Shown: positions 2,263-40,997 of the stretch, one piece after another
Numbering within the stretch: the first letter of the stretch is position 1
Layout of the letters: every line of letters starts with the position of its first letter
IMG/VR virus record: IMGVR_UViG_3300029610_000357
Coordinates: 52,285 to 116,284 of that record
Length of the DNA stretch: 64,000 bases
Source of the DNA: a virus
Taxonomy: Duplodnaviria > Heunggongvirae > Uroviricota > Caudoviricetes
Reading direction: 5' to 3' (one strand)
Made by a program: the position numbers and the translations under genes
The notes under the pieces: generated by a model
Seen by the model: the letters and a program-made list of their open reading frames with translations, nothing else
Databases searched by the model: none
What the model was told of the DNA's origin: nothing

Positions 2263-2335
<73 letters not shown>

Positions 2336-3276: not shown

Positions 3277-3283
3277 GATATTA

Positions 3284-3570: not shown

Positions 3571-3656
3571 ATCCCTGTTGAGGGAATCGAACCCACTCGT
3601 GACCGAAGCCGCAAAATTTACAGTTTTGCCTGTCTCCTTAGCAGTATAAACAGGGA
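3571..3656 (-). tRNA. tRNA-Tyr(GUA), type II with long variable arm
   Basis: Acceptor TCCCTGT/ACAGGGA, anticodon arm GCAAAA-CTGTAAA-TTTTGC, variable arm GGCTTCGGTCAC, T-loop TTCGATT. Confidence 0.8.
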
Positions 3657-3695
3657 TATTAGCCCACAAGTCCGAAGAACATTGTAGGACAAACA

Positions 3696-3770
3696 TCACA
3701 CCAACGAGAGTCGAACTCGTATTGCATCCGTGAAAGGGATGTGTCCTAAAACCATTTAGACGATGGTGCG
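3696..3770 (-). tRNA. tRNA-Glu(UUC)
   Basis: Acceptor CGCACCA/TGGTGTG, Glu-type D-arm GTCT..AGGAC, anticodon arm CATCC-CTTTCAC-GGATG, T-arm ACGAG-TTCGACT-CTCGT. Confidence 0.85.
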
Positions 3771-3776
3771 ATTTAG

Positions 3777-3868
3777 CGTACGGACTGGGCTACGACCCCA
3801 GGATACACATGTTCGTATGTATACAGGATTAGCAATCCTGCGCATTAAACCAGCTCTGCCACCCGTAC
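3777..3868 (-). tRNA. tRNA-Ser(GCU), type II
   Basis: Acceptor GTACGGG/TCCGTAC, anticodon arm CAGGA-TTGCTAA-TCCTG, 22-nt variable arm, T-arm CTGGG-GTCGTAG-CCCAG (non-canonical T-loop). Confidence 0.8.
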
Positions 3869-6068: not shown

Positions 6069-7128
6069 AATCTCCTGATTCAGCTCTTACAGGATAAGAG
6101 ATCTGGTGATAGTTTCTCTCTAAGAGTCTTTGGACAAGGATGTCTCCAAACATGTCCCATACAAACTGCTTACTCTTGCCATTGGTATAGCAGAGGTCAA
6201 GAAGAATGTCACAAGCTTTCTCAGGATCAGGAACAGCAGTGGCAACAGCTTCTCTGAACAACATGACTCGGTTATTGATGATGTCTGTTACATTTAGTCC
6301 AAAGACACCCCGGCCATTGATTAGAGCATTCAGGGTTTTCATTTTCTTTGAATACTCGCTGTATAACTTCTTAAGAGCATAATAATCATTCTTGTTGTAC
6401 TCATGATCTCTTTTGAGAATGGAGTAATCAAAATCTGTTTGTGTATTCAACTTCTTTAAGTAGCCATCAAACTCATCCTCAAAGAGCTTACAGATTCGAT
6501 TCATTACACAAGGCCCTGTACCTACAGGTAAGAACTTATAGTAGTGATCTAAGAATTCTGCTTCATCCTCTGTGATAGGTTCTGTATCAGCTTTCTTGAG
6601 CAATTCATCAATCGTGCATCCAAACCAGATAATACATTTATCGTTTGAAGCTTTCACATAATTTGTGTAATCCTTTCTCAGGTGAGAGTAAATGTAGATC
6701 ATGAAGTATGGTTTCTTGTCAGCTACGATTCTCTGATTGAATTCTTTTCGCTTACGATCCTTTGATGAGTCTTCAGGATGGATGTTGTTGTCTTTTCTGT
6801 TATACCAGTAAGATGGGATAGGTTTACACACAATGCCCTTCAATTTGTCAATCGAATTTTGTTGGTATAGCTGACCGCAAATGATTCTGTAATCCAGTTC
6901 TTTAAACTCATCACTGTCAGGAGAGTAATGAGACTGTACTTCAAACTGAGAAGTGATGATGTTTGTTGTGAAGCCAATTTCGTCTCCAAAGGCATCCTTG
7001 TAAGCTTTTAAAATGTCTTTTCGTTTAGGGACAATCTTGTTAGCTTTGCGTTGAGCACAAATGATTGATGGAAGAGGACGATTGTTTTCAACAAGTATTC
7101 TATTGTTAGTTGTGAAGAAGAGGTCTCC
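5986..7128 (-). CDS. YonO-like single-subunit two-barrel RNA polymerase candidate, exon 2
   Basis: Frame stays open upstream of the track start. Own translation from 7128 gives GDLFFTTNNRILVENNRPLPSIICAQRKANKIVPKRKD...LKGIVCKPIPSYWY. Length is 1143 nt (381 codons), joining in frame to exon 1. Confidence 0.6.
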   Translation of the reverse strand, partial: GDLFFTTNNRILVENNRPLPSIICAQRKANKIVPKRKDILKAYKDAFGDEIGFTTNIITSQFEVQSHYSPDSDEFKELDYRIICGQLYQQNSIDKLKGIVCKPIPSYWYNRKDNNIHPEDSSKDRKRKEFNQRIVADKKPYFMIYIYSHLRKDYTNYVKASNDKCIIWFGCTIDELLKKADTEPITEDEAEFLDHYYKFLPVGTGPCVMNRICKLFEDEFDGYLKKLNTQTDFDYSILKRDHEYNKNDYYALKKLYSEYSKKMKTLNALINGRGVFGLNVTDIINNRVMLFREAVATAVPDPEKACDILLDLCYTNGKSKQFVWDMFGDILVQRLLERNYHQISYPVRAESGDFEYDGDSFVIETIKQIESSMFEEADCY

Positions 7129-7464
7129 CGATGTACCCTCGGTTTCCCGATATTTATGGAGAAAGGGGACTAGACTATATCATTACACAGCATAGGTCTT
7201 ACACTGTGATGCTCGGCACTTCCCTTGGGGAGTTTCACCCTTTTGGTACTCTACTTGCTACCGATACCGTATTCCTCGAATATCAGTGCTTTGGATAGTC
7301 GTTTGACTTTCAATTTCTGCTTAGCACAGGATTACCACCGGCATTACCCGCTGAGGCTCCCCTGTTAGCATATGCGTTAACTTCCATTTCCTGAAGCTAC
7401 TGTACGTCACATATACACCTTACATTTGTAAGTTCACCGAGTTTTACTTCGACCAAGTAAACTA
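7129..7464 (-). ncRNA. group I self-splicing intron, ORF-less (336 nt)
   Basis: 5' exon ends UUCGAU. The intron guide GUCGAA (11 nt in) pairs with it, giving a U.G wobble at the splice site. The intron ends ..GGUACAUCG (terminal G). It contains GAUAUAGUCUAGUCC and is homologous to the intron at 56040-56387. Confidence 0.7.
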
Positions 7465-9114
7465 ATCGAAGTCGCAACCGTTAAGTGATTCACATGTATT
7501 ATCCCAATCATTGATCACACAAATGGATGGGAGATACTGGAACCAGTATGAAAGCTGCTCATTGTTCTTCACTTTAAGATTGACGATGTTATAATGGCTT
7601 GTCATTGGAGCTCTGAAGCAAGCTACTTCATCAACCTGTCTATCGATCCAATGCTTGTGATACATTTCTCCTGCTTTAAGCAATCCTGTAACTTCAAGTC
7701 CAAACATGGATTGCATGAGAGCATATGGATCACCAGCAACGATTGAATAATTACCTTTCACTTTGATGCGTCCGATCTTAGCATCTTGGATTCGTTTCTT
7801 GATGAGAGAATGAATCTTAGATCGAATGAAAGGATCTTTGATCATCTCAGGTTCAGCTATGAGTGCCTGAATGTATGTAAAAGCATCTGACTGTAAGATG
7901 TTCTTCTCAGTCATATTCTTACCTCGCAGGAAGAGCAGAGTCTTTCTGTAATCCATCCCAAGAATGTCTTTGATCTCTTTTATGGTTGGCTCACAAAGCT
8001 CTCTTATTTGGTCGTCTGTAAGATAATAGCTCTGTAAGAACTGATAGTTAAGATTCCTTTCAGTATCACATTCTTGTTCGGCTGTTTTGGCAAGAGCAAA
8101 GTGATAATCATACTTCTCAATGTTCTCTAAGTAGTCTTCCATAGAGTCATATGCATCCCATAGCTTAAACATAGATGTTGTAAGTATCACCTGAGCGTCT
8201 CTAACGTCCCTAGGATGGCCCCAAGCATCAATAATGGTATAAGTCTTAGCTACGTCCTCTGCAAAGGCTCTAAAGTCCATACAGTGAAGCATACCTTTAC
8301 AGAATGGCCATCCTCTCATGTTGCCAGATGGAAGAGGAGTATCATAATCTCCATTCAGTTCACCATTCCATTGTCTTGCAAGTTCTGGAAGAACTAATCC
8401 TTCTCCATCAGACCCATTGTGTACAAACTCTTGATCATCAAGAAGAGTTACTTCTGGTTCATCTGAGTTTGTATCATCCACATAAAGAGCTTGTCCCTTA
8501 AAGATCGTCTCACAGTCTTGTACAACAATCACTCCTGATGGTGGAGTAACAACTGTAGAAGAAGAGCAGAAGAGTGCTTTGTACGCTCCGAGCTTGTTTG
8601 GTATGATCGGAACTTCTTTATTCCTCCCGGCATCTACTTTCTCACAGAGAGCATCGTATACATTGTCACTGACAAAGATTACAACACTGTTCTTTAAGCC
8701 TCCTGTGGTTCCTAAGAAGAGATTGTAGTGGAGATCATTTACAATGAATCCATGCTTGCTGCAGTAGTCATAATCTTTCTTTGTGTCGAAGACCACTGTG
8801 AGGTAGTCTGTTTGGAATCGACATTTGTACAGATCATTGTAGAGTAGTGAGATAAGTTCTTTGCTTCCTCTGTTGGCTGAAAGCTCTTTGATCTTCTTTC
8901 GGATTCTTTTTGCTCTTATGTCTGAATCATAGTCATGGATCAATGAGTCAATTGTTCTTAATGCTTCAGAACTTGAAAGAGTAATAATGTCGTCTCCATT
9001 CTCCCTCGCTTCATTGAGTGGTAGAGAAAGTTTCCACTTCGCCTTTCTTAATCGGCTGCTGTGTAGTTTGTAAATATATTTCTGACTCGTTTTTTGCTTA
9101 GAAATAATGATCAC
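7465..9114 (-). CDS. YonO-like single-subunit two-barrel RNA polymerase candidate, exon 1
   Basis: 550 codons ending ...CESLNGCDFD. Splicing to exon 2 restores NGCDFDGD, resembling the NADFDGD/DxDGD metal-binding motif of two-barrel RNAPs. Confidence 0.6.
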
Positions 9115-10502: not shown

Positions 10503-11060
10503 TTTTGACCTCCTTTTTGCTGTTTCTTTTTGTTAATTCAATGAAAAAATGCATTTGTCTGAGTAATGACACTTTTCTTTCGATAAATTCACATTACCAC
10601 AGATGTAGAGTAAAATCAATAGTTTTCTGAAGAAAAAATAAAATTGTGCGAGCAATGACACTTTTTATTTCATTTAAGTACGTTTAAGGAGGCTTAGACT
10701 GGGATTTTTATGTCAAGTGTTTTTTGGAAATTTCTTAAAATAGTGCTTTCTTTGGCTGTTTTACTTGGTTTGTTCTGGATTTTTCTTTGACTTGTTGTAC
10801 TTAGATGGGTAGAAATATGGCTGTTTTATGCGATTGTACAAAAATAAAATAAATTAATTCTTTATATGCTAAAGTATTGACTTTTGAAAAATCAAGTGTT
10901 TTTTGAAAGAAATTTAAAAAAATTTTTACCGTGTGGAATTCTCAGAGAAGGGGTTTGCATTTATATAAGAAGAGCTTGGTTTTTGAAAAAATTTCAGAGA
11001 GATGGGTTTATAGCAGAACAGGTGTTCTATATTTTAGAGTGTGTTAAGAGGTGCGTTTCT

Positions 11061-11356: not shown

Positions 11357-12327
11357 TTTGAAAAGATTTTTAAAAATAATTTTTTTAGGGTATTGCAATA
11401 TTTTCGTGGGCATGGTCTTATACAGTTGTTCAAACGAACAGGGAACTTGATAAAACAACAACCGGCAAGGGTTGTAAAACGTGCTTGCCAATATTTCAAC
11501 ATAAAAAGGGGGTAGCCCTACCCCTGTATAAAAATTGGGCGTGTACCTTGATAACTGAATAAGTCTGAATCCGTTCGGCAAGTCTCCGAACAGGTTCAAA
11601 AAATCAGTTTCTTTGGAAACTGAACGACAGGCTAAAACTCTGCCCTGTTACTCATTCGTGACAGGCAGACAAGTAAACCTTTGACTTATTGCCTGTACCC
11701 AATGTCACACGAACGTGGTACAGGATTTATAAGAAGTCGTTGCAAGTCCAAAGAAGTGTAGCAGATTTTTTGAATCGGTTCGCAAAAATACAGGTAGTGA
11801 CAGCCTGTAGACAAACTACCAAACAGACGAAAGACTTCCTAAACGATATATTTTATATTGCTTAGTATAGTCGATATGACAGGGTGTCAAACATTGACGG
11901 TTGACCCAAAACACGTTCACATACTATAAGTCCCTGTGGTGGTGGGGTCCTGTCTTTCAAGTGTTTGAGAAGCGTTGTTGTTGACACTATAACAGAGTAC
12001 CGCCCACGGTAGAAAGTTCTAACAGGCACGACAACGGCTCTCATTCGAGCTGGGTATATTGTGCATTGAATACTACTACTTATCTAGTTCAACGGTAGGA
12101 GACTAGACTCTGTGAAATAATAGGCTATGACAGGTGCAACCCCTGTATAGTATCGAGTGAGTGCATGAACACTTGCGAGCGGTCAAAAGTCCCTTTAGGG
12201 ATAATATTAGAACTCTGTGAGTTCATTAGAATACACCTAACAGGTGTGGTCTAATGAGTTCATAGGAACTCAATGCAACAAATACATATTTTTTAGGGTA
12301 CGACTGTATCCGGAATAGGAGTTTATC

Positions 12328-13305: not shown

Positions 13306-13317
13306 TCTTACACAAAT

Positions 13318-13338
13318 AAATACCCATAGTGGGTATTT
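13318..13338 (+). terminator. palindromic hairpin AAATACCCA-tag-TGGGTATTT after the gene end (weak U-tract)
   Basis: Read directly, 13 nt after the stop. Confidence 0.35.
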
Positions 13339-13344
13339 GTATAA

Positions 13345-13415
13345 GCCTGAGTGGGTACTCACTTCCAACACCTCCGAAGTGAGTACGTCACAGGGTTCGA
13401 CTCCCTGTACAGGTT
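13345..13415 (+). ncRNA. tRNA-like element: long hairpin plus canonical T-arm and acceptor-like stem
   Basis: GCCTGAG..GTACTCACTTC-caacacctcc-GAAGTGAGTAC..CAGGG-TTCGACT-CCCTG-TACAGGT. No D-arm or 7-nt anticodon loop. Confidence 0.35.
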
Positions 13416-20977: not shown

Positions 20978-21086
20978 AATTTTAGGGCTTCGTCAAGATT
21001 GCTACAAAGTAATCATTGATGGAGTCCTTTTTAAATTCCCAACAGAACAAGAGTTTTTGGAATTCTTAGAGGAGATTGAGATATGA
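20967..21086 (+). CDS. small ORF (39 aa), coupled at both ends
   Basis: Own translation MSIKILGLRQDCYKVIIDGVLFKFPTEQEFLEFLEEIEI*. ATGA overlap with the next gene. Confidence 0.35.
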   Translation: MSIKILGLRQDCYKVIIDGVLFKFPTEQEFLEFLEEIEI

Positions 21087-21361
21087 GTTTTAGATTTGAA
21101 GTAGGTCAAGAGTTGGAATTACACAATAACTTGACGGATATGAAAGTTTACATGAGATCGGGAACGGTTGTTCGTATCTTAAGTAGAAAAACAAGAATGG
21201 ATCATACACAAGAGGTTGAGAGAAATCGTTACAAGATTGCATATGAATTTCATACAAATTTTTTGAAAATTGGAGATGGTTGTTGCCACTCTGGAAAAGA
21301 CTTTGTCTGGGAAGAAGATTTAATTAGAGCTGTCGGTCAACGGAAAAATAATTATTATTGA
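21083..21361 (+). CDS. KNNYY-tail family member 9 (group E singleton)
   Basis: Ends QRKNNYY*. Confidence 0.8.
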   Translation: MSFRFEVGQELELHNNLTDMKVYMRSGTVVRILSRKTRMDHTQEVERNRYKIAYEFHTNFLKIGDGCCHSGKDFVWEEDLIRAVGQRKNNYY

Positions 21362-21373
21362 GAGGTGATTAAA

Positions 21374-21643
21374 ATGTGGAAAGTTGGAGATAGAGTCGTA
21401 ATTATTCAAGATACTAGGAGACCTTTAAAATCCTTTGTAGGCTTTAAAGGAACTGTTAACTTTGTAGAAGAGGATGGGATAGGTGTAGCTTTTGACAAAT
21501 ATGTAAACGGTCATATGTTAGGAGGGAGTTGCCAAGACGGTCATGGATGGTATTTGTCCACAGACGGAGAGAACGAAAACGAAGCCGAAGCAAATGGAGT
21601 AAGAGTCAAGAAAATTAACAACAGAAAAAATAATTATTGGTAG
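21374..21643 (+). CDS. KNNYY-tail family member 10 (group A)
   Basis: MWKVGDRVVII...VAFDKYVNGH; ends NRKNNYW*. Confidence 0.8.
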   Translation: MWKVGDRVVIIQDTRRPLKSFVGFKGTVNFVEEDGIGVAFDKYVNGHMLGGSCQDGHGWYLSTDGENENEAEANGVRVKKINNRKNNYW

Positions 21644-21652
21644 GTGATAGGA

Positions 21653-21925
21653 ATGTGGGAAAAAGGTACAAGGGTTAGAATTATAAAATCAAATAGATCT
21701 ACAACACCAGTTGGTATCATAGGTACTGTGGTTTACATACGTAAGGATAAAAACGATCGTTTTATAGTAGAGTTTGACGAACCCATGGATGGGAATACCT
21801 TAACTGTTCTTTGTGATTGCAAACCGAACTGCTGGTGGTGGTTTGATAATGTTCCGGGGAGAGTTGTTGAAACAGATGGTATAACAATTGAAAAAATAGG
21901 AAAAAGAAAAAACAATTATTACTAA
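21653..21925 (+). CDS. KNNYY-tail family member 11 (group A)
   Basis: MWEKGTRVRII...VEFDEPMDG; ends KRKNNYY*. Confidence 0.8.
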   Translation: MWEKGTRVRIIKSNRSTTPVGIIGTVVYIRKDKNDRFIVEFDEPMDGNTLTVLCDCKPNCWWWFDNVPGRVVETDGITIEKIGKRKNNYY

Positions 21926-21937
21926 GGTGGTGAGAAT

Positions 21938-22249
21938 ATGTGGGAGATTGGAGATAGAGTGGCTGTTACAGACTTGGGCAAAGCCTCACAAGAGGATTTT
22001 GGAGTTGAAATAAAGGTTGGATACAAAGGAACTATTATCAACTTTTTAAAGGTTGCTGCCCCATGAAGTCCTGATGAGATAATTAAATTCTTAGTAGAGT
22101 TTGACGAATCCATGGGTGGACATAGTGGAAATGGAGCTTATGAAGGAAAGCGGGGACATTGTTGGTGGTTTGATTATTGTTTAGAAAAGGTTACTATCAC
22201 AGATGGCATAAGCATTGAGCAAGTCAAAAGGAAAAATAATTTTTACTAA
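21938..22249 (+). pseudogene. KNNYY-tail family member 12 (group A) with one in-frame TGA at 22064-22066
   Basis: Own translation MWEIGDRVAVTDLGK...KVAAP*SPDEIIKFLVEFDESMGGHSGNG...VKRKNNFY*. Family features are intact on both sides of the stop. Confidence 0.55.
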
Positions 22250-22261
22250 GGGGTGATTAAA

Positions 22262-22495
22262 ATGTGGGAAGTAGGTGACAGAGTAGTAGTTACTCGTGGA
22301 ATTAAAGCTAGTAGCGTATTTGAGACTAAAGCGAAAGGGACAGTCATTGCTATAGATGCGGAATTTACAATACCCGTATTGGTTGAAATAGATGGAACAG
22401 GAACAAGTATGTGGTTCTATGAAAATGGTGATGATTTAATCTGGGGCGGCATTACTTGCACACGAGCAAAAAAGAGAAAAAACAATTATTATTGA
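22262..22495 (+). CDS. KNNYY-tail family member 13 (group A)
   Basis: MWEVGDRVVVTRG; ends KRKNNYY*. Confidence 0.8.
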   Translation: MWEVGDRVVVTRGIKASSVFETKAKGTVIAIDAEFTIPVLVEIDGTGTSMWFYENGDDLIWGGITCTRAKKRKNNYY

Positions 22496-22511
22496 GAAAG
22501 GATGATGACAG

Positions 22512-22799
22512 GTGTTTAAGGTTGGAGATAGGATCGTATTAACAGAAGAAAGCCGCCAACATTGCAATATATTTGATGAACATCCGGGAGATATCGCAAC
22601 GGTTATTAGAGTTTCGCAAGTAACGAATGAACATGGTTATGAATGTGTTTTAGAATTTGATAAACATATTGGTGGACATGATGGATTAATCGATGCTAGA
22701 GGCAAGAACGGTCATTGTGTTATCTATTATTTTTGTTCAACACAGTGGGATAAGTATTTTAGGAAAATCCAAACCAAACGTAAGAATAACTATTATTGA
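22512..22799 (+). CDS. KNNYY-tail family member 14 (group A)
   Basis: GTG start. FKVGDRIVL...LEFDKHIGGHDG; ends KRKNNYY*. Confidence 0.75.
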   Translation: MFKVGDRIVLTEESRQHCNIFDEHPGDIATVIRVSQVTNEHGYECVLEFDKHIGGHDGLIDARGKNGHCVIYYFCSTQWDKYFRKIQTKRKNNYY

Positions 22800-22814
22800 G
22801 AAAGAGGTGATCGT

Positions 22815-23132
22815 ATGCCAGAGGATGTAAAGTACCGTCCAGTTCCTAAAGGATATAAAGGTGTTTTTAGACTAAGAAAAGATATAATATCCTTAAACAA
22901 TGAATTTTATGGGGCATGGGGCATTATAGACGACAAATTTTTAATCGATGAAGATTATTATAATGAAGAAAATGAATTTAAGGGAGATCCTAGTCATGTA
23001 ATTCGAGCAAGTTTTTACCCTAGCCTTTTAGATCTGCAAAGAGGTGAAAATCTTATTAGAGAAGTAGGAAGAGTGTCTGGGACAGAAAAGTGTTGTTATA
23101 TTCCTTTTAAAAGAAAAAATAATTACTATTAA
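22815..23132 (+). CDS. KNNYY-tail family member 15 (group D)
   Basis: KYRPVPKGYKGVFRLRKD; ends KRKNNYY*. Confidence 0.8.
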   Translation: MPEDVKYRPVPKGYKGVFRLRKDIISLNNEFYGAWGIIDDKFLIDEDYYNEENEFKGDPSHVIRASFYPSLLDLQRGENLIREVGRVSGTEKCCYIPFKRKNNYY

Positions 23133-23147
23133 GAAAGAGGTGATCAA

Positions 23148-23462
23148 ATGGAGAATGATGGTAAATATCCTCCAGTACCTAAAGGATACAAGGGTATTTT
23201 TAGAGTTAGACCTGATATGATAGAGTCAAATAATGTGTTCTATGGAGCATATGGTATTACAGGAAAAGGTATTATAGAAGACAGTGATTATTTAGAAGAC
23301 CAAGGAGAATTTACAGGAAATCCACATCATATAATTAAAGCCATTTTTTATCAAACCTATGAAGACTTAAAGAGCAGAGAATGTATGATACAGGGAAGGC
23401 CTGTTAAAATAAGAGAATGCTTGCTTTATCCAGTATCCAACAAGAAGAACAATTACTGGTAG
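23148..23462 (+). CDS. KNNYY-tail family member 16 (group D)
   Basis: KYPPVPKGYKGIFRVRPD; ends NKKNNYW*. Confidence 0.8.
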   Translation: MENDGKYPPVPKGYKGIFRVRPDMIESNNVFYGAYGITGKGIIEDSDYLEDQGEFTGNPHHIIKAIFYQTYEDLKSRECMIQGRPVKIRECLLYPVSNKKNNYW

Positions 23463-23472
23463 GTGGTTTAAG

Positions 23473-23742
23473 ATGATAGAAGCAAAAGATATTAAAGAGG
23501 GTATGAAAATTAAGTATGAAGGCTGGGAATGGACTATAACAAAAGTGTTTGCAAAATATAATAATGTCTTGGATCTTCGGAATGGTTATACTAAAAAAAT
23601 CATTGATCAAGATAGTTCATTGATTTGGATTGAAGCATCGAAGAGACGCTTTGTGCCTGAATCAATGACTATGGAATGGTTCTTTAAAGAACTGAAATAT
23701 GGAACAATAAAGATTTTAAATCGTAAAAATAATTATTATTGA
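23473..23742 (+). CDS. KNNYY-tail family member 17 (group C)
   Basis: IKEGMKIKYEGWEWTITKV; ends NRKNNYY*. Confidence 0.8.
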   Translation: MIEAKDIKEGMKIKYEGWEWTITKVFAKYNNVLDLRNGYTKKIIDQDSSLIWIEASKRRFVPESMTMEWFFKELKYGTIKILNRKNNYY

Positions 23743-23748
23743 GGTGAT

Positions 23749-24039
23749 ATGATGTATTTAGAAGACATTAAAGTTGGTCAGAGAGTGAATTATCGAGGTC
23801 ATTCCTATACAATAACTAAAAATGTTGTAAAGCGATGGAAAACAATAAGCCCCCATTCCTTATATTCATACATTAAGATAAGTACAAATTATTATAGATC
23901 ACGAATGTATTTCCAAAGAGTGGAAGACAAAAGTGAATCAGTTGACGGATTTTGGTTATTATATGACGAGATTGAAGAAAAAATGGATCGAGGGCTTATT
24001 AAATTTTTGAACATGTCAAAGAAAAATAATTATTATTAA
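23749..24039 (+). CDS. KNNYY-tail family member 18 (group C)
   Basis: IKVGQRVNYRGHSYTITKN; ends SKKNNYY*. Confidence 0.8.
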   Translation: MMYLEDIKVGQRVNYRGHSYTITKNVVKRWKTISPHSLYSYIKISTNYYRSRMYFQRVEDKSESVDGFWLLYDEIEEKMDRGLIKFLNMSKKNNYY

Positions 24040-24054
24040 AGAGGGTGTTACAAA

Positions 24055-25347
24055 GTGAACGAGATCAATAAAAGGAAATTAGAACTGTTCATGGATGATC
24101 AGCTATGGAGACAAAATATCACACATCAGCAAAGCAAAGGTGTACATAGAGATGTATTAAGAATTGTATGTGATCCAGAATACAAAGCACGGCTTTTAGG
24201 AATGATCTGGGATGGTAATTACAAAATTGCACCTCCGTATGTAGTAGAAATTCCTAAAGACAATGGAAAAGTAAGAGAAGTGTATGTTAATCAGCCAATT
24301 GACAGATTTGTTATGACACAAATCAATTATGTTTATATGCAATTATATGGTCATATGATTCATCCAAGATGTGTGTCTTATCAGAAAGGAATTGGAGTTA
24401 AAAATATCGTAGATGATATTTGTATGGAGCTTAAGAAACATCAAGGAGCTGTTGGGTATAAGGTAGACATTAGTAAGTATTTTGACAGTGTAAGCCGTGA
24501 GGTACTTAATGAAATGATTGATAAAATTGATACAGGAAGTCCTATTGATCAGATTGTAAGAGATTATTATATGGATGATTGTATCATTGATCAGAAAAGA
24601 AATGTTATTGAGAAATACAAAAGTATGACTCAAGGTTGTGCAGTGTCTACATTCTTTGCCAATTGTGTTTTAAGAGATGTAGACGAAGAGTTAAGCAAGA
24701 TGGATATTATTTATTACAGATATTCAGATGATATCTTGATGGTTGGTAAGGATGCAGATAAGGCTTTGAAGATGTTAGGAGAGATGTTAGAAACAAAAGG
24801 ACTTACATTAAATCCCAAAAAGGTAGAAACAGTCAGTACAGATCAATGGTTTACATTCTTAGGAGTGCGAATTAATGGACAGAAGAGAAGTTTTTCTGAA
24901 AAGAGCTTAAAGGAATTTCAGAAACACATTAGAGAATATGTAAATAAGAAAGCAGGAATTGGTAGCGTAAAAGTTGCAATCAGACAAATTAATAAATATC
25001 TGTATTTGAATTTCTTAAGGAATCCGAATGAGTTTGGTTGGGCTGAGTATTTCTTTAGTATTGTGAATGTCGAAGATGATATTAAGACATTAGATATGTG
25101 GATTAAAGATACACTCAGAGGTTTGTATACTGGTAAGAGAAAGGTTGGTGGTCTTGGTGTAAATAAAGTAACTGATGAATGTGGAGTATTAAGAGGGAAA
25201 GGAAAAAACGTAAGTGCAAATCTTGGTAAAACAAGAAGCGATAAAGACATTTTAGAAGAAGCAGGATATATCAGCATGAATGAAATGTATCATCAGTTTA
25301 GATACAGTAAAGAATTGTACAGGGCTTCATTGACGGCTTTATCTTAA
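24055..25347 (+). CDS. reverse transcriptase (stand-alone, class unassigned)
   Basis: RT motifs IPKDNGKVREVY, YKVDISKYFDSV, QGCAVSTFFANCVL, YYRYSDDILMVG (YxDD), LTLNPKKVE, FTFLGVRI, plus a ~140-aa C-terminal extension. GTG start 15 nt after the last KNNYY gene. Confidence 0.9.
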   Translation: MNEINKRKLELFMDDQLWRQNITHQQSKGVHRDVLRIVCDPEYKARLLGMIWDGNYKIAPPYVVEIPKDNGKVREVYVNQPIDRFVMTQINYVYMQLYGHMIHPRCVSYQKGIGVKNIVDDICMELKKHQGAVGYKVDISKYFDSVSREVLNEMIDKIDTGSPIDQIVRDYYMDDCIIDQKRNVIEKYKSMTQGCAVSTFFANCVLRDVDEELSKMDIIYYRYSDDILMVGKDADKALKMLGEMLETKGLTLNPKKVETVSTDQWFTFLGVRINGQKRSFSEKSLKEFQKHIREYVNKKAGIGSVKVAIRQINKYLYLNFLRNPNEFGWAEYFFSIVNVEDDIKTLDMWIKDTLRGLYTGKRKVGGLGVNKVTDECGVLRGKGKNVSANLGKTRSDKDILEEAGYISMNEMYHQFRYSKELYRASLTALS

Positions 25348-25403
25348 GTCAAACCTAACACGAGGTACTTATGTGAGATGTTATAAGTCAAATTAGATCA
25401 CTA

Positions 25404-25480
25404 GGAAGCTCTGGTGATTCCATGCATGGTTGATAACCAGCATTCCATCACCACTTCTTCCCAGATCTTATCATCATAAA
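25404..25480 (+). other. hairpin-box module A1: ~58-nt imperfect hairpin followed by ATCATAAA
   Basis: GGAAG-ctc-TGGTGA..ATGC-a-TGGTT-gat-AACCA-GCAT..TCACCA-ctt-CTTCC, then ATCATAAA at 25473-25480. Confidence 0.5.
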
Positions 25481-25563
25481 GGGAATTTAGAAACGTGTTA
25501 TTAACATGAACATAAGAAAGTTACTATGGACGTTGTATGTGAGACAATGGAATTACATATAAG

Positions 25564-25640
25564 GCGCGTTGAAGCTGCAGGATGACTGGCAATACATTGA
25601 CCAAGTCATCCCTGCAGCTCAACCGCTTTATAATCATAAA
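25564..25640 (+). other. hairpin-box module A2
   Basis: GCGCGTTGAAGCTGCAGGATGACTGG-loop-CCAAGTCATCCCTGCAGCTCAACCGC, then ATCATAAA at 25633-25640. Confidence 0.55.
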
Positions 25641-25721
25641 AGAATAAAGGAACATAGCATTATTGTGAGCATACAAACAAGCTAACATGGGCTAAACATA
25701 CGAGACGTTGAATCATACATA

Positions 25722-25815
25722 ATAAGGGCACAGCTGCCTTATGCAGCGGGAAATTAGTCTCCTCGACAATAATTTCACCGCTGCCACAGGCGTGCGTGCC
25801 CTTATTAATCATAAA
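25722..25815 (+). other. hairpin-box module A3
   Basis: ATAAGGGCAC...GCAGCGGGAAATT-loop-AATTTCACCGCTGC...GTGCCCTTAT, then ATCATAAACCAATAGAGAAA at 25808. Confidence 0.55.
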
Positions 25816-25864
25816 CCAATAGAGAAAACATGTCGCCAATGTAGAGTATGTAGAAAGGAAAATC

Positions 25865-26401
25865 ATGAAAAGTTTATTTAAAGTATTGTATGAGCTGTCA
25901 CAAGGAAATACCTTAATGATTAATAGTTGCATGTCTTTTAGAATGACAACTGATCTATACAAAAGACAAGTGAGATTTAAGAAGTATAAGGTTGTTGATC
26001 AAGGAAGCGTAGTAAGTGATGTGACATTGTGTAGTGGAGAAGTTATTGAGTATGATGACTTAATAAAGGAAGGAGATTTAGATTTTATATTGCCAACTGA
26101 ATTAAATGAAAAAGAAAATCCATATGAGGTTATTGAATACCTGTATGGATTATTTTATTGCTCAGTTCCTGATAGATCTGCTGTTCAAAAGAAACAAAAT
26201 TTTATAGCAAAAGGATTAAATGATTTTGGGGCAAATGATTTTACAGGAATGAGAAGAAGTGAAATTCAGCCATTGTTAGAGCTCTATGTGTTACTCGCTG
26301 GAATGAAAGGATGGATCACTTGGAAAGATGATAAGTTGTTCTTTTGGAAAGGTGGACATAAGAGTTTGTATATATATAGAAAATGGATTTTAGGTTATTA
26401 G
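25865..26401 (+). CDS. hypothetical protein
   Basis: ORF track; AGGAAA RBS. Confidence 0.5.
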   Translation: MKSLFKVLYELSQGNTLMINSCMSFRMTTDLYKRQVRFKKYKVVDQGSVVSDVTLCSGEVIEYDDLIKEGDLDFILPTELNEKENPYEVIEYLYGLFYCSVPDRSAVQKKQNFIAKGLNDFGANDFTGMRRSEIQPLLELYVLLAGMKGWITWKDDKLFFWKGGHKSLYIYRKWILGY

Positions 26402-26418
26402 GAAAGGAAGAATGTAAA

Positions 26419-27180
26419 ATGAATGTAGAAAAGAGTTTAGAAAAAGCAGGAGTAGACACAAAGAAATATCCTTCATTAGCTATGCAGAATATTTTAGGAT
26501 ATCAAGGGAAAGCGTTTGCAGAAAATTCATACCTGTATAAAAAGATTATGGAAGATGGACATGTGTTTAATCCTTATATACACAGAAGATGGCTTCCATA
26601 TCAGTTTATGAATGCTGTCCATTGGACAAGACGGTATTATGTAGAGACTATTGGTTATGTAAAGATGCTTGAAAAAGAATTGATGCGTGGCAATAATGTA
26701 GATAATTGGAAATATATGTACGATAAATTTGGAAAAGAGCTTAATGCTTTATATACACTCTCAAAAAGAGATAAAAAAGCGTATAAAGAAAGATGGGCTG
26801 CTTTTGGAAGGTTAGAAATTTTGAATTATTTTTCTCAAGGGTTTGATTGTATAGGGATAAATCAGAATACATTCTTGGAAATGAAAAATTTATTAGCGGA
26901 TGAAAGATTTGAAGCTGAACGATATTGGCGATATACTAATTGTTTATTGTATAAACAGTCACAATTTAGAAAAGATTTGGTAACAACAACTTTCCATTCA
27001 GGAATTTATTTTACATTAAAACACATTATGATGTTTGATTATGACAAATTACATATGTCTTCATCCCAAAAAGAAAGCCTAAAACGAATTAGAGAAGACT
27101 TAATTAATGGAGATTTCAATTATGAGCAGGCTTTTACAATTATTGAAGATTACGTAGCAAGATATTACAATCCAAGATAG
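26419..27180 (+). CDS. hypothetical protein
   Basis: ATG 26419 after a GGAAAGGAAG RBS. Confidence 0.55.
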   Translation: MNVEKSLEKAGVDTKKYPSLAMQNILGYQGKAFAENSYLYKKIMEDGHVFNPYIHRRWLPYQFMNAVHWTRRYYVETIGYVKMLEKELMRGNNVDNWKYMYDKFGKELNALYTLSKRDKKAYKERWAAFGRLEILNYFSQGFDCIGINQNTFLEMKNLLADERFEAERYWRYTNCLLYKQSQFRKDLVTTTFHSGIYFTLKHIMMFDYDKLHMSSSQKESLKRIREDLINGDFNYEQAFTIIEDYVARYYNPR

Positions 27181-27193
27181 AGAGGGGAATTAT

Positions 27194-27691
27194 ATGCCAG
27201 AAGAAGTAAAGAAATTAACTATTAAAGAAGCAGATGAGTTTATTAAAAAGAAAGTAATCGGAGTTCTCATAAAAGCAGATGTAACAATAATAGTAAATGA
27301 ATTAGAAGCTATTTATGGAGATTCGTTAGCAAATGGAACGGTTGGAGATTCGTTTTATATTTATAACTGTCCAGAAAATTATGATGAATCAGATTATGAA
27401 GAGCTTGAGTATATTGACTATGATGATATGTGTGAAGATGATATTCGTGAAGAGAGAGCTGAAGCAGGAGATTTCAATCTTAAAGTATATAAGTGGTTCA
27501 TTGTTGATCCAAGATTTACAGAATTATTAAAAGATTTAGGAGAGATAGTTGCTCCAGATATTAACCTTTGGGGATGTTGTGAAGACATTGAAGACGCAAG
27601 CGAAGCAACTGTAATTGAAGAATTTTTTGAGAGAATGCAGATTCTGTATGGACAAAAGAATGCAATTATTACAGAAAAATTGAGTGCCTAA
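27194..27691 (+). CDS. acidic hypothetical protein
   Basis: ORF track; D/E-rich. Confidence 0.55.
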   Translation: MPEEVKKLTIKEADEFIKKKVIGVLIKADVTIIVNELEAIYGDSLANGTVGDSFYIYNCPENYDESDYEELEYIDYDDMCEDDIREERAEAGDFNLKVYKWFIVDPRFTELLKDLGEIVAPDINLWGCCEDIEDASEATVIEEFFERMQILYGQKNAIITEKLSA

Positions 27692-27743
27692 ACCAACAAA
27701 AGGGAGATGTACCCTTTGTAGAAATACTTATCATCAACCATCA

Positions 27744-27859
27744 AAGAAGGAGGATCTTCAGAACCCTCCGCATTGATTACGCTAAACATCACTTCGTAAT
27801 GATTTAGCAGCATCAACTGCGAGAGGAGTTCATGAAGATCCTCCTTCTTGAATCATAAA
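27744..27859 (+). other. hairpin-box module B1
   Basis: 17-bp perfect outer stem AAGAAGGAGGATCTTCA/TGAAGATCCTCCTTCTT enclosing further pairing, then ATCATAAATACATAGAGG at 27852. Confidence 0.55.
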
Positions 27860-27955
27860 TACATAGAGGAATACATCGAAGATAAGTTGTTCTACATTTT
27901 TTTTGCAAGAGATATACTTGCTGATTTAATGAATTGTGTTTGAATCACTCACATA

Positions 27956-28076
27956 ATCAGGAGAAAGGAGGCATAATCTCATCTCCTTCACTGGCAAGCC
28001 AGGAAGGACTTGATGAGATTACACTCCGCTGCGGCGTCATTGTGCCTCCATACTCCTGATCATGTTTGATCATAAA
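27956..28076 (+). other. hairpin-box module B2
   Basis: ATCAGGAG..GGAGGCA-TAATCTCATC..GATGAGATTA..TGCCTCC..CTCCTGAT, then ATCATAAACCAATAGAGAAA at 28069. The box plus 12 nt are identical to A3. Confidence 0.55.
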
Positions 28077-28149
28077 CCAATAGAGAAATATATCACCTCA
28101 CAATGAGTTAAATCTGTAACTATTAATTTACATAGAAAAGGAGAAACAG

Positions 28150-28722
28150 ATGAAAGCGATTTTTAAAGGAGAAACGGTTGTAAGAACTAAATTAACATTA
28201 GATACTGGGCTTGAGAAATTAGATGGATCTGATGTTAGGTATTTTGTAAGAGAGCCTAAACTGATACATGAGTGTACGAATGAAGATTGGGGGATTGTGT
28301 TAGAAAAAGATCTTTCATTCAATAAGATTATGCTTATTAATTCTTATATCGATGAAGTAGTTTTAGATGGAATTACACTTGAGTTTCCAGATATTGTATA
28401 TCTTAATCTTGAAGAAGATAAAGTAATTTTTGAAGTTGGTGGTTCTTATACAATTAAAGATAAAGACGAGGAAGAGAAAATTGAAACATACCACAAGCTT
28501 ATGGAAGCTTACAATAAGCAAGTAAGAACTAGAGAAGAGAACGAAGATGATTGCTGTGGTTGTGGATTCTGCTCAAAAGAGGGTGACTTCTCTGGAGAGG
28601 AATATGATGAAATAAAAGGGTTCAATGAAGAGGACATTGAAAAGAAAGCAATGGATGATCTAGATGATCTAAATGAAATTCTTACAGCATTCTTTGGGGA
28701 TGTTCCGGGATTCAAGTGTTAG
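28150..28722 (+). CDS. acidic hypothetical protein
   Basis: ORF track; GGAGAAA RBS. Confidence 0.55.
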   Translation: MKAIFKGETVVRTKLTLDTGLEKLDGSDVRYFVREPKLIHECTNEDWGIVLEKDLSFNKIMLINSYIDEVVLDGITLEFPDIVYLNLEEDKVIFEVGGSYTIKDKDEEEKIETYHKLMEAYNKQVRTREENEDDCCGCGFCSKEGDFSGEEYDEIKGFNEEDIEKKAMDDLDDLNEILTAFFGDVPGFKC

Positions 28723-32450: not shown

Positions 32451-32481
32451 TATTAAGCCGGCTCGTAAGAGCTGGCATCTT

Positions 32482-32631
32482 GGGGACATAGCTTAATAGG
32501 TAAAGCAAAACTATATTTTTCCATAAAGAACTTAAAACTAAAATTTTCATATTAAATATAAACATTTTGTACCTCCCTATTGTAATAAAATAACACTTAT
32601 ATTTATGTGGGTTCGAGTCCCACTGTCCCCA
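32482..32631 (+). tRNA. tRNA-like gene interrupted by a ~75-nt AT-rich insertion; anticodon unresolved
   Basis: GGGGACA-TA-GCTT-AATAGGTA-AAGC ... GTGGG-TTCGAGT-CCCAC-TGTCCCC-A. Acceptor, D- and T-arms are perfect, but no 5-7-5 anticodon arm can be drawn. Confidence 0.45.
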
Positions 32632-40794: not shown

Positions 40795-40856
40795 ATACAT
40801 AAAGAAACTAATCGAGTATCAGATTTAGGATACAAGGCAGTATTAATCACATAGAG

Positions 40857-40936
40857 ATACGAAGACCCCGGCGACTGGAATCTACCACAGGAAACATTCC
40901 AAGTCGCCAGTCTTCGTATGGCTCTAAGATCATAAA
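40857..40936 (+). other. hairpin-box module C
   Basis: ATACGAAGAC..GCGACT-TGGAAT-loop-ATTCCA-AGTCGCC-GTCTTCGTAT, then ATCATAAA at 40929-40936. Confidence 0.55.
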
Positions 40937-40997
40937 TGAAATAAAGCAAGATACTATACTGATGAGTATTCTATTTAAAAGAAAAGGAGATTACATA

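What the first reader, a model, noticed from the sequence alone, without database searches (positions are those of the whole stretch)
25348..25864. Three tandem long-hairpin plus ATCATAAA-box modules immediately downstream of the RT
This 517-nt ORF-free stretch holds three long, GC-enriched, bulged hairpins of 58-85 nt (25404-25461, 25564-25626, 25722-25806). Their stem sequences are unrelated, yet each is followed within 1-12 nt by ATCATAAA (25473, 25633, 25808). The stems are much longer than needed for an intrinsic terminator, and the trailing sequence is not a U-tract. The units could be promoter-to-hairpin delimited small RNAs of ~150-170 nt, recognition sites for the phage sigma factor or YonO-like RNAP, or template/primer RNAs for the RT.
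Basis: seen in the sequence. Interest (0 to 1): 0.7.

Follow-up and report, generated by a model that had tools for sequence, protein, structure and literature searches.

The report
Hairpin module array of a phage reverse transcriptase
The three hairpins are real and form the non-coding array that accompanies a phage-encoded UG27-type reverse transcriptase, a region already predicted in 2022, and its hairpins appear built to fold in the antisense (possibly copied-DNA) form.

Summary
Window 25348-25864 holds three long hairpins (z -4.9 to -9.9), each followed by ATCATAAA.

The gene upstream is a UG27-group UG/Abi reverse transcriptase (PADLOC E 3e-168). Mestre et al. 2022 already predicted a putative, unvalidated ncRNA with three long stem-loops between UG27 RTs and the next gene. 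This is a new member of a known kind.

What I add:
- **Unit structure.** The array is built from a repeated unit of about 150-200 nt: often a small hairpin, then a two-part closing stem, a long variable hairpin and a single-stranded conserved box of about 30 nt.
- **Copy number.** The window has six units: three after the RT, two after three accessory ORFs, and one 15 kb away. Other UG27 loci have 1-8 after the RT.
- **Selection on structure.** About 15 compensatory double changes occur among 93-99 % identical relatives. Cognate flanks pair far better than non-cognate ones (p 1e-9).
- **Strand asymmetry.** The long hairpins fold better as the minus strand in 49 of 57 cases, while the flanks fold better as the plus strand.

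I infer a plus-sense RNA scaffold whose hairpin is copied by the RT into minus-sense DNA hairpins. That step is not shown. Rivals are antisense RNAs, RNase III sites and DNA-level elements.

The parts
24055..25347 (+). Reverse transcriptase gene (430 aa), UG27 group of UG/Abi RTs, with the catalytic YSDD motif conserved
   Evidence: Pfam RVT_1 E 6.9e-21. PADLOC RT_UG27 E 3.2e-168 over 5-428 of the protein, next best UG26 at 5.9e-51. Y223-S224-D225-D226 are invariant in 16 homologues.
25353..25516 (+). Module 1. Small hairpin 25353-25366; closing stem CTTATG/TGAG/ATGTTA (25368-25383) pairing with TAACAT/GAA/CATAAG (25502-25516); long hairpin 25395-25468; box from 25473
   Evidence: Hairpin z -4.9. 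The stem is hypervariable but keeps pairing in close relatives. Box HMM E 9.9e-5. The closing stem is read from the sequence; it appears in the flank-only fold but not in the full-unit minimum-energy folds or the RNAalifold consensus, and its shuffle z is only -1.1.
25533..25676 (+). Module 2. Closing stem TTGTATG/TGAG/ACAAT (25533-25548) pairing with ATTGT/GAG/CATACAA (25662-25676); long hairpin 25558-25632; box from 25633
   Evidence: Hairpin z -8.7. The closing stem is recovered in the fold of the whole stretch and by RNAalifold. Box HMM E 2.2e-4.
25680..25851 (+). Module 3. Small hairpin 25680-25693; closing stem ACATAC/GAG/ACGTTG (25696-25710) pairing with CAATGT/AGA/GTATGT (25837-25851); long hairpin 25720-25807; box from 25808
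   Evidence: Hairpin z -9.9. Inverted repeat I6. RNAalifold keeps both helices, and a G.U to A-U change in P1b occurs in two relatives. A G-C to A-T compensatory change occurs at 25727/25800. Box HMM E 5.1e-4.
25865..26401 (+). Accessory ORF 1 (178 aa), conserved directly after the array in relatives; no known fold
26383..27180 (+). Accessory ORF 2 (265 aa), all-helical; no known fold
   Evidence: 12 homologues found. AF2 pLDDT 74.7. No Foldseek PDB match at E <= 0.001.
27194..27691 (+). Accessory ORF 3 (165 aa), unknown function
   Evidence: No Pfam or PHROG hit. An ORF of similar size follows at the same position in L029 and L031.
27699..27896 (+). Module 4. Small hairpin 27699-27717; closing stem TGTAGA..CTTATC pairing with GATAAG..TCTACA; long hairpin 27741-27851; box from 27852
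   Evidence: The 110 nt upstream of the box (window 27742-27853) fold at -58.2 kcal/mol. Closing helix z -2.9. Two compensatory changes, at 27776/27813 and 27782/27807. Box HMM E 0.0023.
27905..28114 (+). Module 5. Small hairpin 27905-27921; closing stem GATTTAAT..ATTGTG pairing with CACAAT-GAG-TTAAATC; branched long hairpin 27944-28063; box from 28069
   Evidence: Closing helix z -3.0. Compensatory changes at 27988/28004 and in the basal stem. Box HMM E 3.3e-5.
40800..40985 (+). Module 6, a remote copy upstream of the AAA-ATPase/replication gene block. Long hairpin 40852-40926; box from 40929. Outer boundaries are approximate.
   Evidence: Sequence read. The 110 nt upstream of the box fold at -39.6 kcal/mol. 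Seven compensatory changes in relatives L023-L028. Box HMM E 0.0039. Flank duplex z -2.3.

Best explanation
The stretch is the non-coding array of a phage-encoded UG27 reverse-transcriptase system. It is not three separate hairpins. It is three tandem copies of one structured module of about 150-170 nt.

Each module has, in order:
- often a small hairpin;
- a two-part closing stem with a purine-rich internal loop;
- a short linker;
- a long hairpin of 60-125 nt with free sequence but conserved pairing;
- a single-stranded conserved box of about 30 nt (ATCATAAA-N2-3-AATARAG-RAA-YRYRYC).

Two more modules follow the three accessory ORFs, and a sixth lies 15 kb downstream.

Proposed mechanism:
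1. The array is transcribed in the sense of the RT operon.
2. Each module folds through its closing stem.
3. The RT recognises the conserved box and closing stem.
4. The RT copies the long hairpin into minus-sense single-stranded DNA, which itself folds into a hairpin, in a retron-msDNA-like way.

Shown here: the identity of the RT, the module anatomy, its conservation at UG27 loci, selection on pairing, and the opposite strand preference of hairpins and flanks. Inferred: transcription in the sense direction, RT binding, cDNA synthesis, and any downstream role such as anti-defence or replication.
For: - **RT family.** PADLOC RT_UG27 E 3.2e-168; the YSDD motif is invariant.
- **Literature.** UG27 RTs are phage-encoded and have a putative ncRNA with three long stem-loops between the RT and the next gene (PMC9226505).
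- **Conservation at UG27 loci.** Modules follow the RT gene in contigs with RT identity of 85, 70, 55, 52, 50 and 45 % and in IMG/VR contigs at 52-37 %. One of these is a phage with markedly more G+C-rich sequence, carrying 8 modules. A second array after the accessory ORFs recurs in L029, L031, L033, L037, L054 and L056.
- **Box specificity.** A box HMM finds exactly six hits in the 64 kb, all on the plus strand (E <= 0.004; the next hit has E 4).
- **Selection on pairing.** About 15 distinct compensatory double changes occur among 93-99 % identical relatives.
- **Closing stem.** Cognate flank duplexes average -18.4 kcal/mol against -11.8 for non-cognate ones; median rank 3.6 %, p 1e-9, n = 57. 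Shuffle z averages -2.05.
- **Strand signature of the hairpins.** They are more stable as the minus strand in 25/28 (p 7e-5) and 24/29 (p 2e-5). G.T pairs number 17 and 22 on the plus strand against 49 and 47 on the minus strand.
- **Strand signature of the flanks.** They are more stable as the plus strand in 21 of 28, with 6 minus and 1 tie (p 0.0014).
- **DNA folding.** All six hairpins fold as minus-strand DNA with z -4.5 to -11.
- **Contrast.** SPbeta, which has no UG27 RT, has no window at or below -30 kcal/mol.
- **Weak hint.** A September 2026 preprint mentions UG27 74 times and cDNA 24 times, and has 'DNA hairpin' in its abstract. I know only term counts; the text was not readable.
Against: - No expression, cDNA or binding data exist for this locus. 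All steps after folding are inference.
- The strand asymmetry is statistical. Antisense RNA or single-stranded genomic DNA would explain it equally well, and an unrecognised mutational bias cannot be ruled out. Single substitutions among close relatives give G.T and A.C about equally.
- Module 6 lies 15 kb from the RT, so not every copy is RT-adjacent.
- In the window's clade, the box read on the minus strand looks like a sigma-A promoter. That favours the antisense-RNA rival.
- UG/Abi RTs studied so far use diverse priming modes. Nothing here identifies a primer.
- A flanking direct repeat that might support template jumping is not above control.
- Several of the most distant loci (RT 35-37 % identical, L055-L062) show no clear array directly after the RT.
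Confidence: 0.6

Rival explanations
1. Antisense small RNAs. On the minus strand each box would be a host sigma-A promoter (TTGACA-like, 16-17 nt, TATGAT). It would fire into the long hairpin and produce minus-sense RNAs that begin with a stable hairpin and regulate or stabilise something in the RT operon.
For: - The hairpins fold better in the minus sense.
- The promoter scan flags three boxes on the minus strand: GCGACA-17-TATGAT at 25836-25808, ATAACA-17-TATGAT at 25501-25473 and GTGATA-16-TATGAT at 28096-28069.
- In relatives the -35 position reads TTGACA (L029) or ATGACA (L031) at the right spacing (my reading of the sequences).
Against: - A closing helix encloses the box and the hairpin. 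A transcript starting inside the box could not contain both of its arms.
- The flanks prefer the plus sense.
- Transcription starting about 7 nt after TATGAT would cut off the conserved basal pairs of the stems.
- In other clades the box becomes ATCTAAA, ATCGTAAA or ATGAAAC with different spacing, and it loses a usable -10/-35 geometry.
- No terminator follows the hairpin on the minus strand.
- Overall promoter-like hits in the region equal the shuffle expectation, 17 against 17.3.
Confidence: 0.12
2. RNase III-type processing or stabiliser sites in the polycistronic early mRNA. The model is the intercistronic hairpins of T7 early RNA or the Bs-RNase III sites of SP82 (both cited from my own knowledge). 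Cleavage would separate and stabilise the RT message and the downstream messages.
For: - The stems are long, bulged double-stranded helices of 25-45 bp in the sense strand between cistrons.
- No U-tract follows them.
- The 5' arms are purine-rich and Shine-Dalgarno-like (sequence).
Against: - The hairpins are optimised for the opposite strand: A.C mismatches outnumber G.U about 2.5 to 1 in the sense strand.
- Up to 8 tandem copies occur with no cistron between them.
- The modules track the UG27 RT locus rather than operon boundaries in general. Most other intergenic gaps of the window lack them.
- The conserved closing helix and the 30-nt box are not needed for RNase III.
Confidence: 0.1
3. 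DNA-level elements. The hairpins would be extruded from single-stranded minus-strand genomic DNA and serve as single-strand initiation or priming signals, or as structure-specific recombination sites in the manner of integron attC sites.
For: - The minus-strand preference with G.T pairs fits DNA as well as RNA.
- Variable stems combined with short conserved flanking sequences resemble attC logic.
- One module sits just upstream of the replication gene block.
Against: - The flanks and closing stem prefer the plus strand.
- No recombinase or integrase gene lies next to the arrays.
- The arrays contain no gene cassettes.
- The tight linkage to an RT gene across divergent phages is left unexplained.
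Confidence: 0.08
4. Promoters or terminators for a phage-specific transcription apparatus (YonO-like RNAP or a phage sigma factor).
For: - A YonO-like gene appears to be present at 5986-9114 on the minus strand; it matches phrog_8308, an unannotated family of YonO-like length (847 positions). This is an inference from gene length and the SPbeta-like context.
- The YonO promoter is unknown (PMC5467207).
- The box is a long conserved motif.
Against: - The boxes lie in early, sense-strand operons. In SPbeta, YonO transcribes the late operon.
- Tandem copies have nothing to transcribe between them.
- SPbeta has no comparable hairpin between 50 and 134 kb.
- Its repeated regulatory element SPBRE is a different sequence without hairpins.
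- The motif follows the RT in other phage lineages.
Confidence: 0.04

Closest known systems
UG27 RT-associated putative ncRNA (Mestre et al. 2022, NAR 50:6084, PMC9226505)
   Same: - The RT group is the same (PADLOC RT_UG27).
- The setting is phage-encoded.
- The position is the same: the intergenic region between the RT and the next conserved gene.
- It is described as having three long stem-loops.
- The accessory proteins have no recognisable domains.
   Different: The paper, as far as I could read it, describes one ncRNA with three stem-loops and calls it unvalidated. Here the region resolves into a variable number (1-8) of repeated self-contained modules. Each has a closing stem and a conserved single-stranded box. 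Further arrays lie after the accessory genes and one lies 15 kb away. The hairpins show an antisense folding preference. I could not see Supplementary Figure S6, so the overlap in detail is unknown.
Retron msr-msd ncRNA and msDNA
   Same: - An RT gene sits next to a structured ncRNA.
- Flanking inverted repeats close the unit, like a1/a2.
- A long hairpin has free sequence but conserved pairing, like the msd stem.
- The proposed product is a single-stranded DNA hairpin.
   Different: - The RT is not a retron RT (retron profiles E 1e-16 against 3e-168 for UG27).
- The ncRNA lies downstream of the RT, not upstream.
- The units are tandemly repeated.
- No branching G can be identified.
- The element is in a phage rather than a host defence island.
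DRT2 (UG2) and DRT9 (UG28) ncRNA-templated defence RTs
   Same: They are Class 2 UG/Abi RTs, the closest solved relatives by sequence (9ioa E 7e-14; Drt9 E 1.5e-28). They act on a dedicated structured ncRNA encoded next to the gene.
   Different: - Their ncRNAs are single, lie upstream of the RT, and are conserved in sequence (PMC9226505).
- From my own knowledge, their products are concatemeric or homopolymeric cDNA.
- They are host defence systems, whereas UG27 shows no defence-island enrichment.
Intercistronic RNase III sites of phage early mRNAs (T7; SP82 in Bacillus)
   Same: Long bulged hairpins without U-tracts lie between cistrons in the sense strand of early operons.
   Different: - Those are single sites between genes with no linked RT.
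- The hairpins here occur in tandem arrays of up to 8 with no cistron between them.
- Each has a closing helix and a 30-nt conserved box.
- They fold better as the antisense strand.
SPbeta repeated element SPBRE (operator of the MrpR repressor)
   Same: It is a repeated motif in intergenic regions of the early operons of an SPbeta-type phage (PMC10516654).
   Different: SPBRE has the core AATATGTATA and overlaps sigma-A promoters. It has no adjacent long hairpins and no sequence similarity to the box.

Membership tests
UG27 reverse-transcriptase system (UG/Abi Class 2) | RT matches the UG27 profile better than any other RT group | tested here: met
   PADLOC RT_UG27 E 3.2e-168, 558 bits, covering 5-428 of 430 aa. 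The next best is UG26 at 5.9e-51.
UG27 reverse-transcriptase system (UG/Abi Class 2) | Encoded in a phage genome | tested here: met
   The window is a distant SPbeta-like phage. Its PolIII alpha is 43 % identical to YorL. It also has DnaB, RecD2 and dUTPase genes, a probable YonO-like gene (match to phrog_8308, unannotated) and anti-repressor genes. Near-identical IMG/VR contigs are 70-134 kb long.
UG27 reverse-transcriptase system (UG/Abi Class 2) | Structured non-coding region with long stem-loops between the RT and the next conserved gene | tested here: met
   Three hairpins with z -4.9 to -9.9. The feature is conserved in most of the UG27 loci examined.
UG27 reverse-transcriptase system (UG/Abi Class 2) | Associated protein clusters 337 and 346 (and 336) of Mestre et al. 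| not testable with these tools
   The cluster profiles are not available here. ORFs of similar size follow the RT at the same position in most relatives examined, but not in L033/L034. They have no known domain or fold, which agrees with the paper's description.
Retron | RT of the retron clade | tested here: not met
   The best retron profile is RT_Ec107-like at E 1e-16, and NCBIfam retron_St85_RT scores 72.9 bits against a cutoff of 235.
Retron | ncRNA upstream of the RT, closed by a1/a2 repeats, with a long msd hairpin | tested here: inconclusive
   A closing helix and a long hairpin are present. The array lies downstream of the RT, however, and is multi-copy.
Retron | 2'-5' branched priming from a conserved G; msDNA product | not testable with these tools
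   This needs biochemistry. The 5' internal loop often contains G (TGAG, GAG) but not always (AATA in module 4).
Intrinsic (rho-independent) terminator | GC-rich stem followed directly by a U-tract | tested here: not met
   The stems are followed by AUCAUAAA. The scan finds no plus-strand terminator in 24800-28400. Canonical terminators exist elsewhere in the window.
Sigma-A promoter (box read on the minus strand) | -35 and -10 hexamers at 16-18 nt spacing, conserved wherever the element is conserved | tested here: inconclusive
   TATGAT is invariant in the window's clade, with -35 matches of 2-6 out of 6 (sequences). The geometry is lost in the ATCTAAA and ATGAAAC clades.
Any Rfam family | Match to a curated covariance model | tested here: not met
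   No family at E < 0.01 in 23500-27500; only chance miRNA and snoRNA hits well below their gathering scores. The whole-window gathering search finds nothing here.

The most novel reading that the evidence does not exclude
A phage reverse transcriptase uses a tandem array of self-contained RNA modules as templates. From them it makes a repertoire of different minus-sense single-stranded DNA hairpins, in effect a phage-borne multi-retron. The hairpin sequences diversify quickly under pairing constraint. The products would act in trans, for example as decoys for host nucleases or DNA-sensing defences (many stems carry GATC), or as replication primers.
Probability: 0.35. Interest if true: 0.85.

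Novelty: new member of a known kind. Interest (0 to 1): 0.5.

Why it matters
UG27 is the one large UG/Abi RT group that lives in phages rather than in host defence islands. Its function is not established in the literature I could read.

If the modules are RT templates that yield DNA hairpins, phages would have their own msDNA-like effectors. The variable-copy array would be a compact and evolvable way to encode many of them.

The module definition given here (closing stem, hairpin, box) and the opposite strand preferences of scaffold and hairpin turn a vague 'three stem-loops' annotation into specific, cheap experiments. These are strand-specific RNA and ssDNA sequencing, an RT active-site mutant, and single-module in vitro assays.

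For annotation, the result shows that these hairpins should not be called terminators, promoters or small-RNA genes.

Tried and rejected
- **SPBRE analogue.** I derived the SPbeta SPBRE core (AATATGTATA within TAGACA-N17-TATAAT promoters) from the ten MrpR-bound regions. It has no similarity to the box and no hairpins.
- **Plus-strand sigma-A promoter in the box.** The hexamers are poor, and hits in the region equal the shuffle expectation.
- **Intrinsic terminators.** There is no U-tract.
- **Known RNA families.** None matched.
- **DGR-type mutagenesis.** Substitutions in the hypervariable hairpin 1 are not adenine-specific.
- **Mini-ORFs starting in the box.** The spacing to the Shine-Dalgarno-like purines is too short, and the frames are not conserved (reading).
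- **Direct repeat (AATCA) flanking the hairpin as a template-jump signal.** The mean longest shared word is 4.35, against 4.21 +/- 0.13 for mismatched partners, so it is not significant.
- **GenBank phages.** There is no DNA match to 24000-26500.
- **Genome-contig scan with the RT.** It returned only one cyanobacterial RT at 22 % identity.
- **Degenerate box search in viral contigs.** It added only chance hits outside the same species.
- **Fold searches for two accessory proteins.** They gave no match.
- **The 2026 preprint.** It could not be opened under three forms of its identifier.
- **RNAalifold on close relatives.** It gives little covariation (1 pair) because those sequences are 97 % identical and hairpin 1 aligns poorly. 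The compensatory changes were therefore counted per module.
Full report
**1.

- **Hairpins.** The stretch 25348-25864 holds three long bulged hairpins. With their basal pairs they span 25395-25468, 25558-25632 and 25720-25807.
- **Stability.** As RNA they fold at -25.3, -41.9 and -50.7 kcal/mol. The z-scores against dinucleotide shuffles are -4.9, -8.7 and -9.9, and none of 200 shuffles does as well. The whole 517 nt has z -9.6.
- **Rank.** In a sliding 90-nt fold of all 64 kb (mean -13.8, sd 5.0 kcal/mol), only 12 places reach -32 kcal/mol. Hairpins 2 and 3 are among them.
- **Motif.** ATCATAAA starts at 25473, 25633 and 25808. The window holds 17 copies against 9.1 expected.
- **Not terminators.** No U-tract follows the stems. 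The phage uses ordinary U-tract terminators elsewhere, and the terminator scan flags none of these hairpins.
- **Composition.** The hairpins have about 47 % GC in a genome of about 34 %.

**2. The same thing occurs elsewhere in the window**

- **Three further copies.** A long unrelated hairpin followed by ATCATAAA occurs at 27741-27851 (box from 27852), 27944-28063 (box from 28069) and 40852-40926 (box from 40929).
- **Box HMM.** The box extends to about 30 nt: ATCATAAA-N2-3-AATARAG-RAA-YRYRYC. An HMM of the box finds exactly these six sites in the 64 kb, all on the plus strand (E 3e-5 to 4e-3). The next hit has E = 4. The six window boxes were part of the HMM's training set, so their scores are partly circular.
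- **Layout.** The window has three modules after the RT and two after the next three ORFs. One further module lies upstream of the AAA-ATPase/replication block.

**3. Context**

- **The phage.** The window is a distant SPbeta-like phage. Its PolIII alpha is 43 % identical to SPbeta YorL. It also has DnaB, RecD2 and dUTPase genes and anti-repressor and Thg1-like genes. A gene at 5986-9114 (minus strand) matches phrog_8308, an unannotated family of YonO-like length; I read it as YonO-like.
- **SPbeta lacks the hairpins.** SPbeta has no 90-nt window at or below -30 kcal/mol between 50 and 134 kb. Its repeated regulatory element SPBRE, the operator of MrpR (PMC10516654), is a different sequence that overlaps sigma-A promoters.
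- **The RT.** ORF 24055-25347 is an RT of the UG27 group: PADLOC E 3.2e-168 over the full length, with UG26 next at 6e-51. The YSDD motif is invariant among homologues.

**4. Literature**

- **Mestre et al. 2022** (PMC9226505) report three things. UG27 RTs are mostly encoded in predicted phages. They associate with protein clusters that have no known domains.
- **A September 2026 preprint** (10.64898/2026.09.22.753630) mentions UG27 74 times, 'UG27 ncRNA' 11 times, cDNA 24 times and hairpin 33 times. It has 'DNA hairpin' in its abstract. I could not open it, so these are term counts only.

**5. Relatives**

- **Close relatives.** Ten IMG/VR contigs from one metagenome are 93-99 % identical to the window.
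- **Graded relatives.** RT homologues led to contigs with RT identity of 85, 70, 55, 52, 50 and 45 %. An RT profile led to IMG/VR contigs at 52-35 %.
- **Modules follow the RT.** In most of these contigs the RT gene is followed by tandem long hairpins with unrelated sequences, each followed by a lineage-specific version of the box:
  - ATCATAAA..AATAAAGAAAC
  - ATCTAAA..ATAAAG or ATCTAAA..TACAATAA
  - ATCGTAAA..GAAG
  - ATGAAAC..TAKAGAAAYG

- **Copy number.** The count after the RT is 1, 2, 2, 2, 3, 4, 5 or 8.
- **Second array.** A second array after the accessory ORFs recurs in L029, L031, L033, L037, L054 and L056. Modules 4 and 5 of the window therefore belong to the system.
- **Weaker cases.** Several of the 35-37 % loci show weaker or no arrays directly after the RT.

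**6. Module anatomy**

- **Closing stem.** Folding each unit with its flanks shows a recurrent two-part closing helix: 6-8 bp, a 2-4-nt purine-rich internal loop such as TGAG/GAA or GAG/AGA, then 5-8 bp. It encloses the linker, the long hairpin and the unpaired box. A small 4-6-bp hairpin often precedes it.
- **Window examples.**

| Module | 5' arm | 3' arm |
|---|---|---|
| 1 | CTTATG-TGAG-ATGTTA | TAACAT-GAA-CATAAG |
| 2 | TTGTATG-TGAG-ACAAT | ATTGT-GAG-CATACAA |
| 3 | ACATAC-GAG-ACGTTG | CAATGT-AGA-GTATGT |

- **Module 1 is the weakest case.** Its closing stem shows up only when the flanks are folded alone, not in the full-unit folds or the RNAalifold consensus. Its shuffle z is -1.1.
- **The helix differs in sequence from module to module.** Against shuffles the flank duplex has mean z -2.05, with 15 of 28 below -2.
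- **Cognate versus non-cognate flanks.** Cognate flanks average -18.4 kcal/mol and non-cognate flanks -11.8 kcal/mol. The median rank is 3.6 %, Wilcoxon p is 1e-9, n = 57, and both subsets behave alike.
- **RNAalifold.** On nine close relatives it recovers the closing helices and long hairpins of modules 2 and 3.

**7. Selection on pairing**

- Among the 93-99 % identical relatives the spacers are almost invariant, but several stems vary. About 15 distinct double substitutions keep Watson-Crick pairs. Examples are 27782/27807 C-G to T-A, 27776/27813 A-T to T-A, 27988/28004 T-A to C-G, 25727/25800 G-C to A-T and seven in module 6.
- Hairpin 1 is hypervariable yet folds in every variant.
- The stems share one sequence trait. 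GATC is 3.3-fold enriched (35 against 10 expected, z 7.9, present in 17 of 28 hairpins), often as AGGATC in the lower stem.

**8. Strand signature**

| Set | Hairpins more stable as minus strand | Wilcoxon p | G.T pairs, plus vs minus | Binomial p |
|---|---|---|---|---|
| First set | 25 of 28 | 7e-5 | 17 vs 49 | 1e-4 |
| Independent set (more distant loci) | 24 of 29 | 2e-5 | 22 vs 47 | 0.0035 |

- **Flanks.** The flanks and closing stems show the opposite preference. The plus strand is more stable in 21 of 28, with 6 minus and 1 tie (p 0.0014), and G.U pairs number 52 against 33.
- **DNA folding.** All six window hairpins also fold strongly as minus-strand DNA, with z -4.5 to -11.
- **Caveat.** Single substitutions among close relatives give G.T and A.C about equally. 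The asymmetry is therefore a long-term, family-wide signal. It is not proof.

**9. Interpretation**

- **What fits best.** The scaffold (closing stem, small hairpin, box) fits a plus-sense RNA made with the RT operon. The long hairpin appears to matter in its complementary form. With an RT next door, the simplest reading is that the RT copies each module into a minus-sense DNA hairpin, as retron RTs make msDNA.
- **What is missing.** This last step is inference. No primer, start site or product is shown.
- **Antisense-RNA rival.** It has real support in the window's clade. There the reverse-complemented box reads TTGACA-like, then 16-17 nt, then TATGAT. It conflicts with the closing helix that spans the box. 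It also conflicts with the loss of promoter geometry in other clades.
- **RNase III sites.** They conflict with the strand signature, the tandem copies and the RT linkage.
- **DNA-level elements.** Priming signals or attC-like sites fit the minus-strand preference, but not the plus-strand scaffold or the RT linkage.
- **Phage RNAP or sigma sites.** These have no support.

**10. Accessory proteins**

- **ORF 26383-27180.** It is all-helical (pLDDT 74.7) with no Foldseek match.
- **Families.** None of the three ORFs has a Pfam or PHROG family. This matches the 2022 description and gives no mechanistic clue.

**11. Verdict**

The finding is real and is the UG27-associated non-coding region. That makes it a new member of a known, but functionally unsolved, kind.

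The additions made here are the modular unit, the closing stem, the extended box, the variable copy number, the extra arrays, the rapid compensated evolution and the opposite strand preferences. They may or may not already be in the 2026 preprint, which I could not read.

Noticed in passing
window 2594-3205 (-), with tRNA genes at 2262-3868 (-): A full-length ROOL RNA (Rfam RF03087, 306 bits, E 2e-69) sits inside an array of seven tRNA genes (Thr, Gln, Trp, Arg, Tyr, Glu, Ser) on the late-gene side of the phage.
   Followed up: partly
window 32482-32631 (+): Rfam matches a complete tRNA model across 150 nt, so this is a tRNA gene interrupted by an insert of about 78 nt. ARAGORN does not call it. 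It lies in the 32451-32606 gap of the early operon.
   Followed up: no
window 54630-58961 (+), gap 56112-56558: The PolIII alpha homologue is split into a PHP/N-terminal ORF (54630-56111) and a finger/HHH ORF (56559-58961). A 447-nt non-coding, visibly structured gap separates them, which suggests an intron. No Rfam family reaches its gathering score there.
   Followed up: partly
window 5986-9114 (-): The probable YonO-like RNA polymerase appears as two ORFs: 7462-9114 (550 aa, matching positions 56-552 of the 847-position phrog_8308) and 5986-6843 (285 aa, phrog_35857). Both PHROG families are unannotated, so the YonO assignment is my inference from length and context. The gene may be split or interrupted.
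   Followed up: no
window 21083-24039 (+): A run of about ten small ORFs of 80-105 aa lies directly upstream of the RT. At least two are paralogous (22776-23017 and 23109-23350, about 70 % DNA identity). Relatives carry a ThiF-like gene and two large ORFs in this neighbourhood instead.
   Followed up: no
window 10555-10575 and 10647-10667: A repeated motif, TGTCTGAGTAATGACACTTTT and TGTGCGAGCAATGACACTTTT, lies in the divergent intergenic region between the late (minus) and early (plus) blocks. It is a candidate operator of the lysis-lysogeny switch.
   Followed up: no
window 12181-12270 and 13311-13400 (+): Two further very stable hairpins (-34.6 and -37.5 kcal/mol per 90 nt) have no ATCATAAA box, so they are a different kind of element. 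The second is followed by a tRNA T-arm-like GGTTCGACTCC, which may be an attachment-site remnant.
   Followed up: no
57 module hairpins from the window and loci L029-L056: GATC is enriched 3.3-fold in the long stems, often as AGGATC near the base. CTGCAG, GGATCC and AGATCT also recur. About half of the modules have AAATCA just 5' of the hairpin, echoing the start of the 3' box. The meaning of both traits is unknown.
   Followed up: partly
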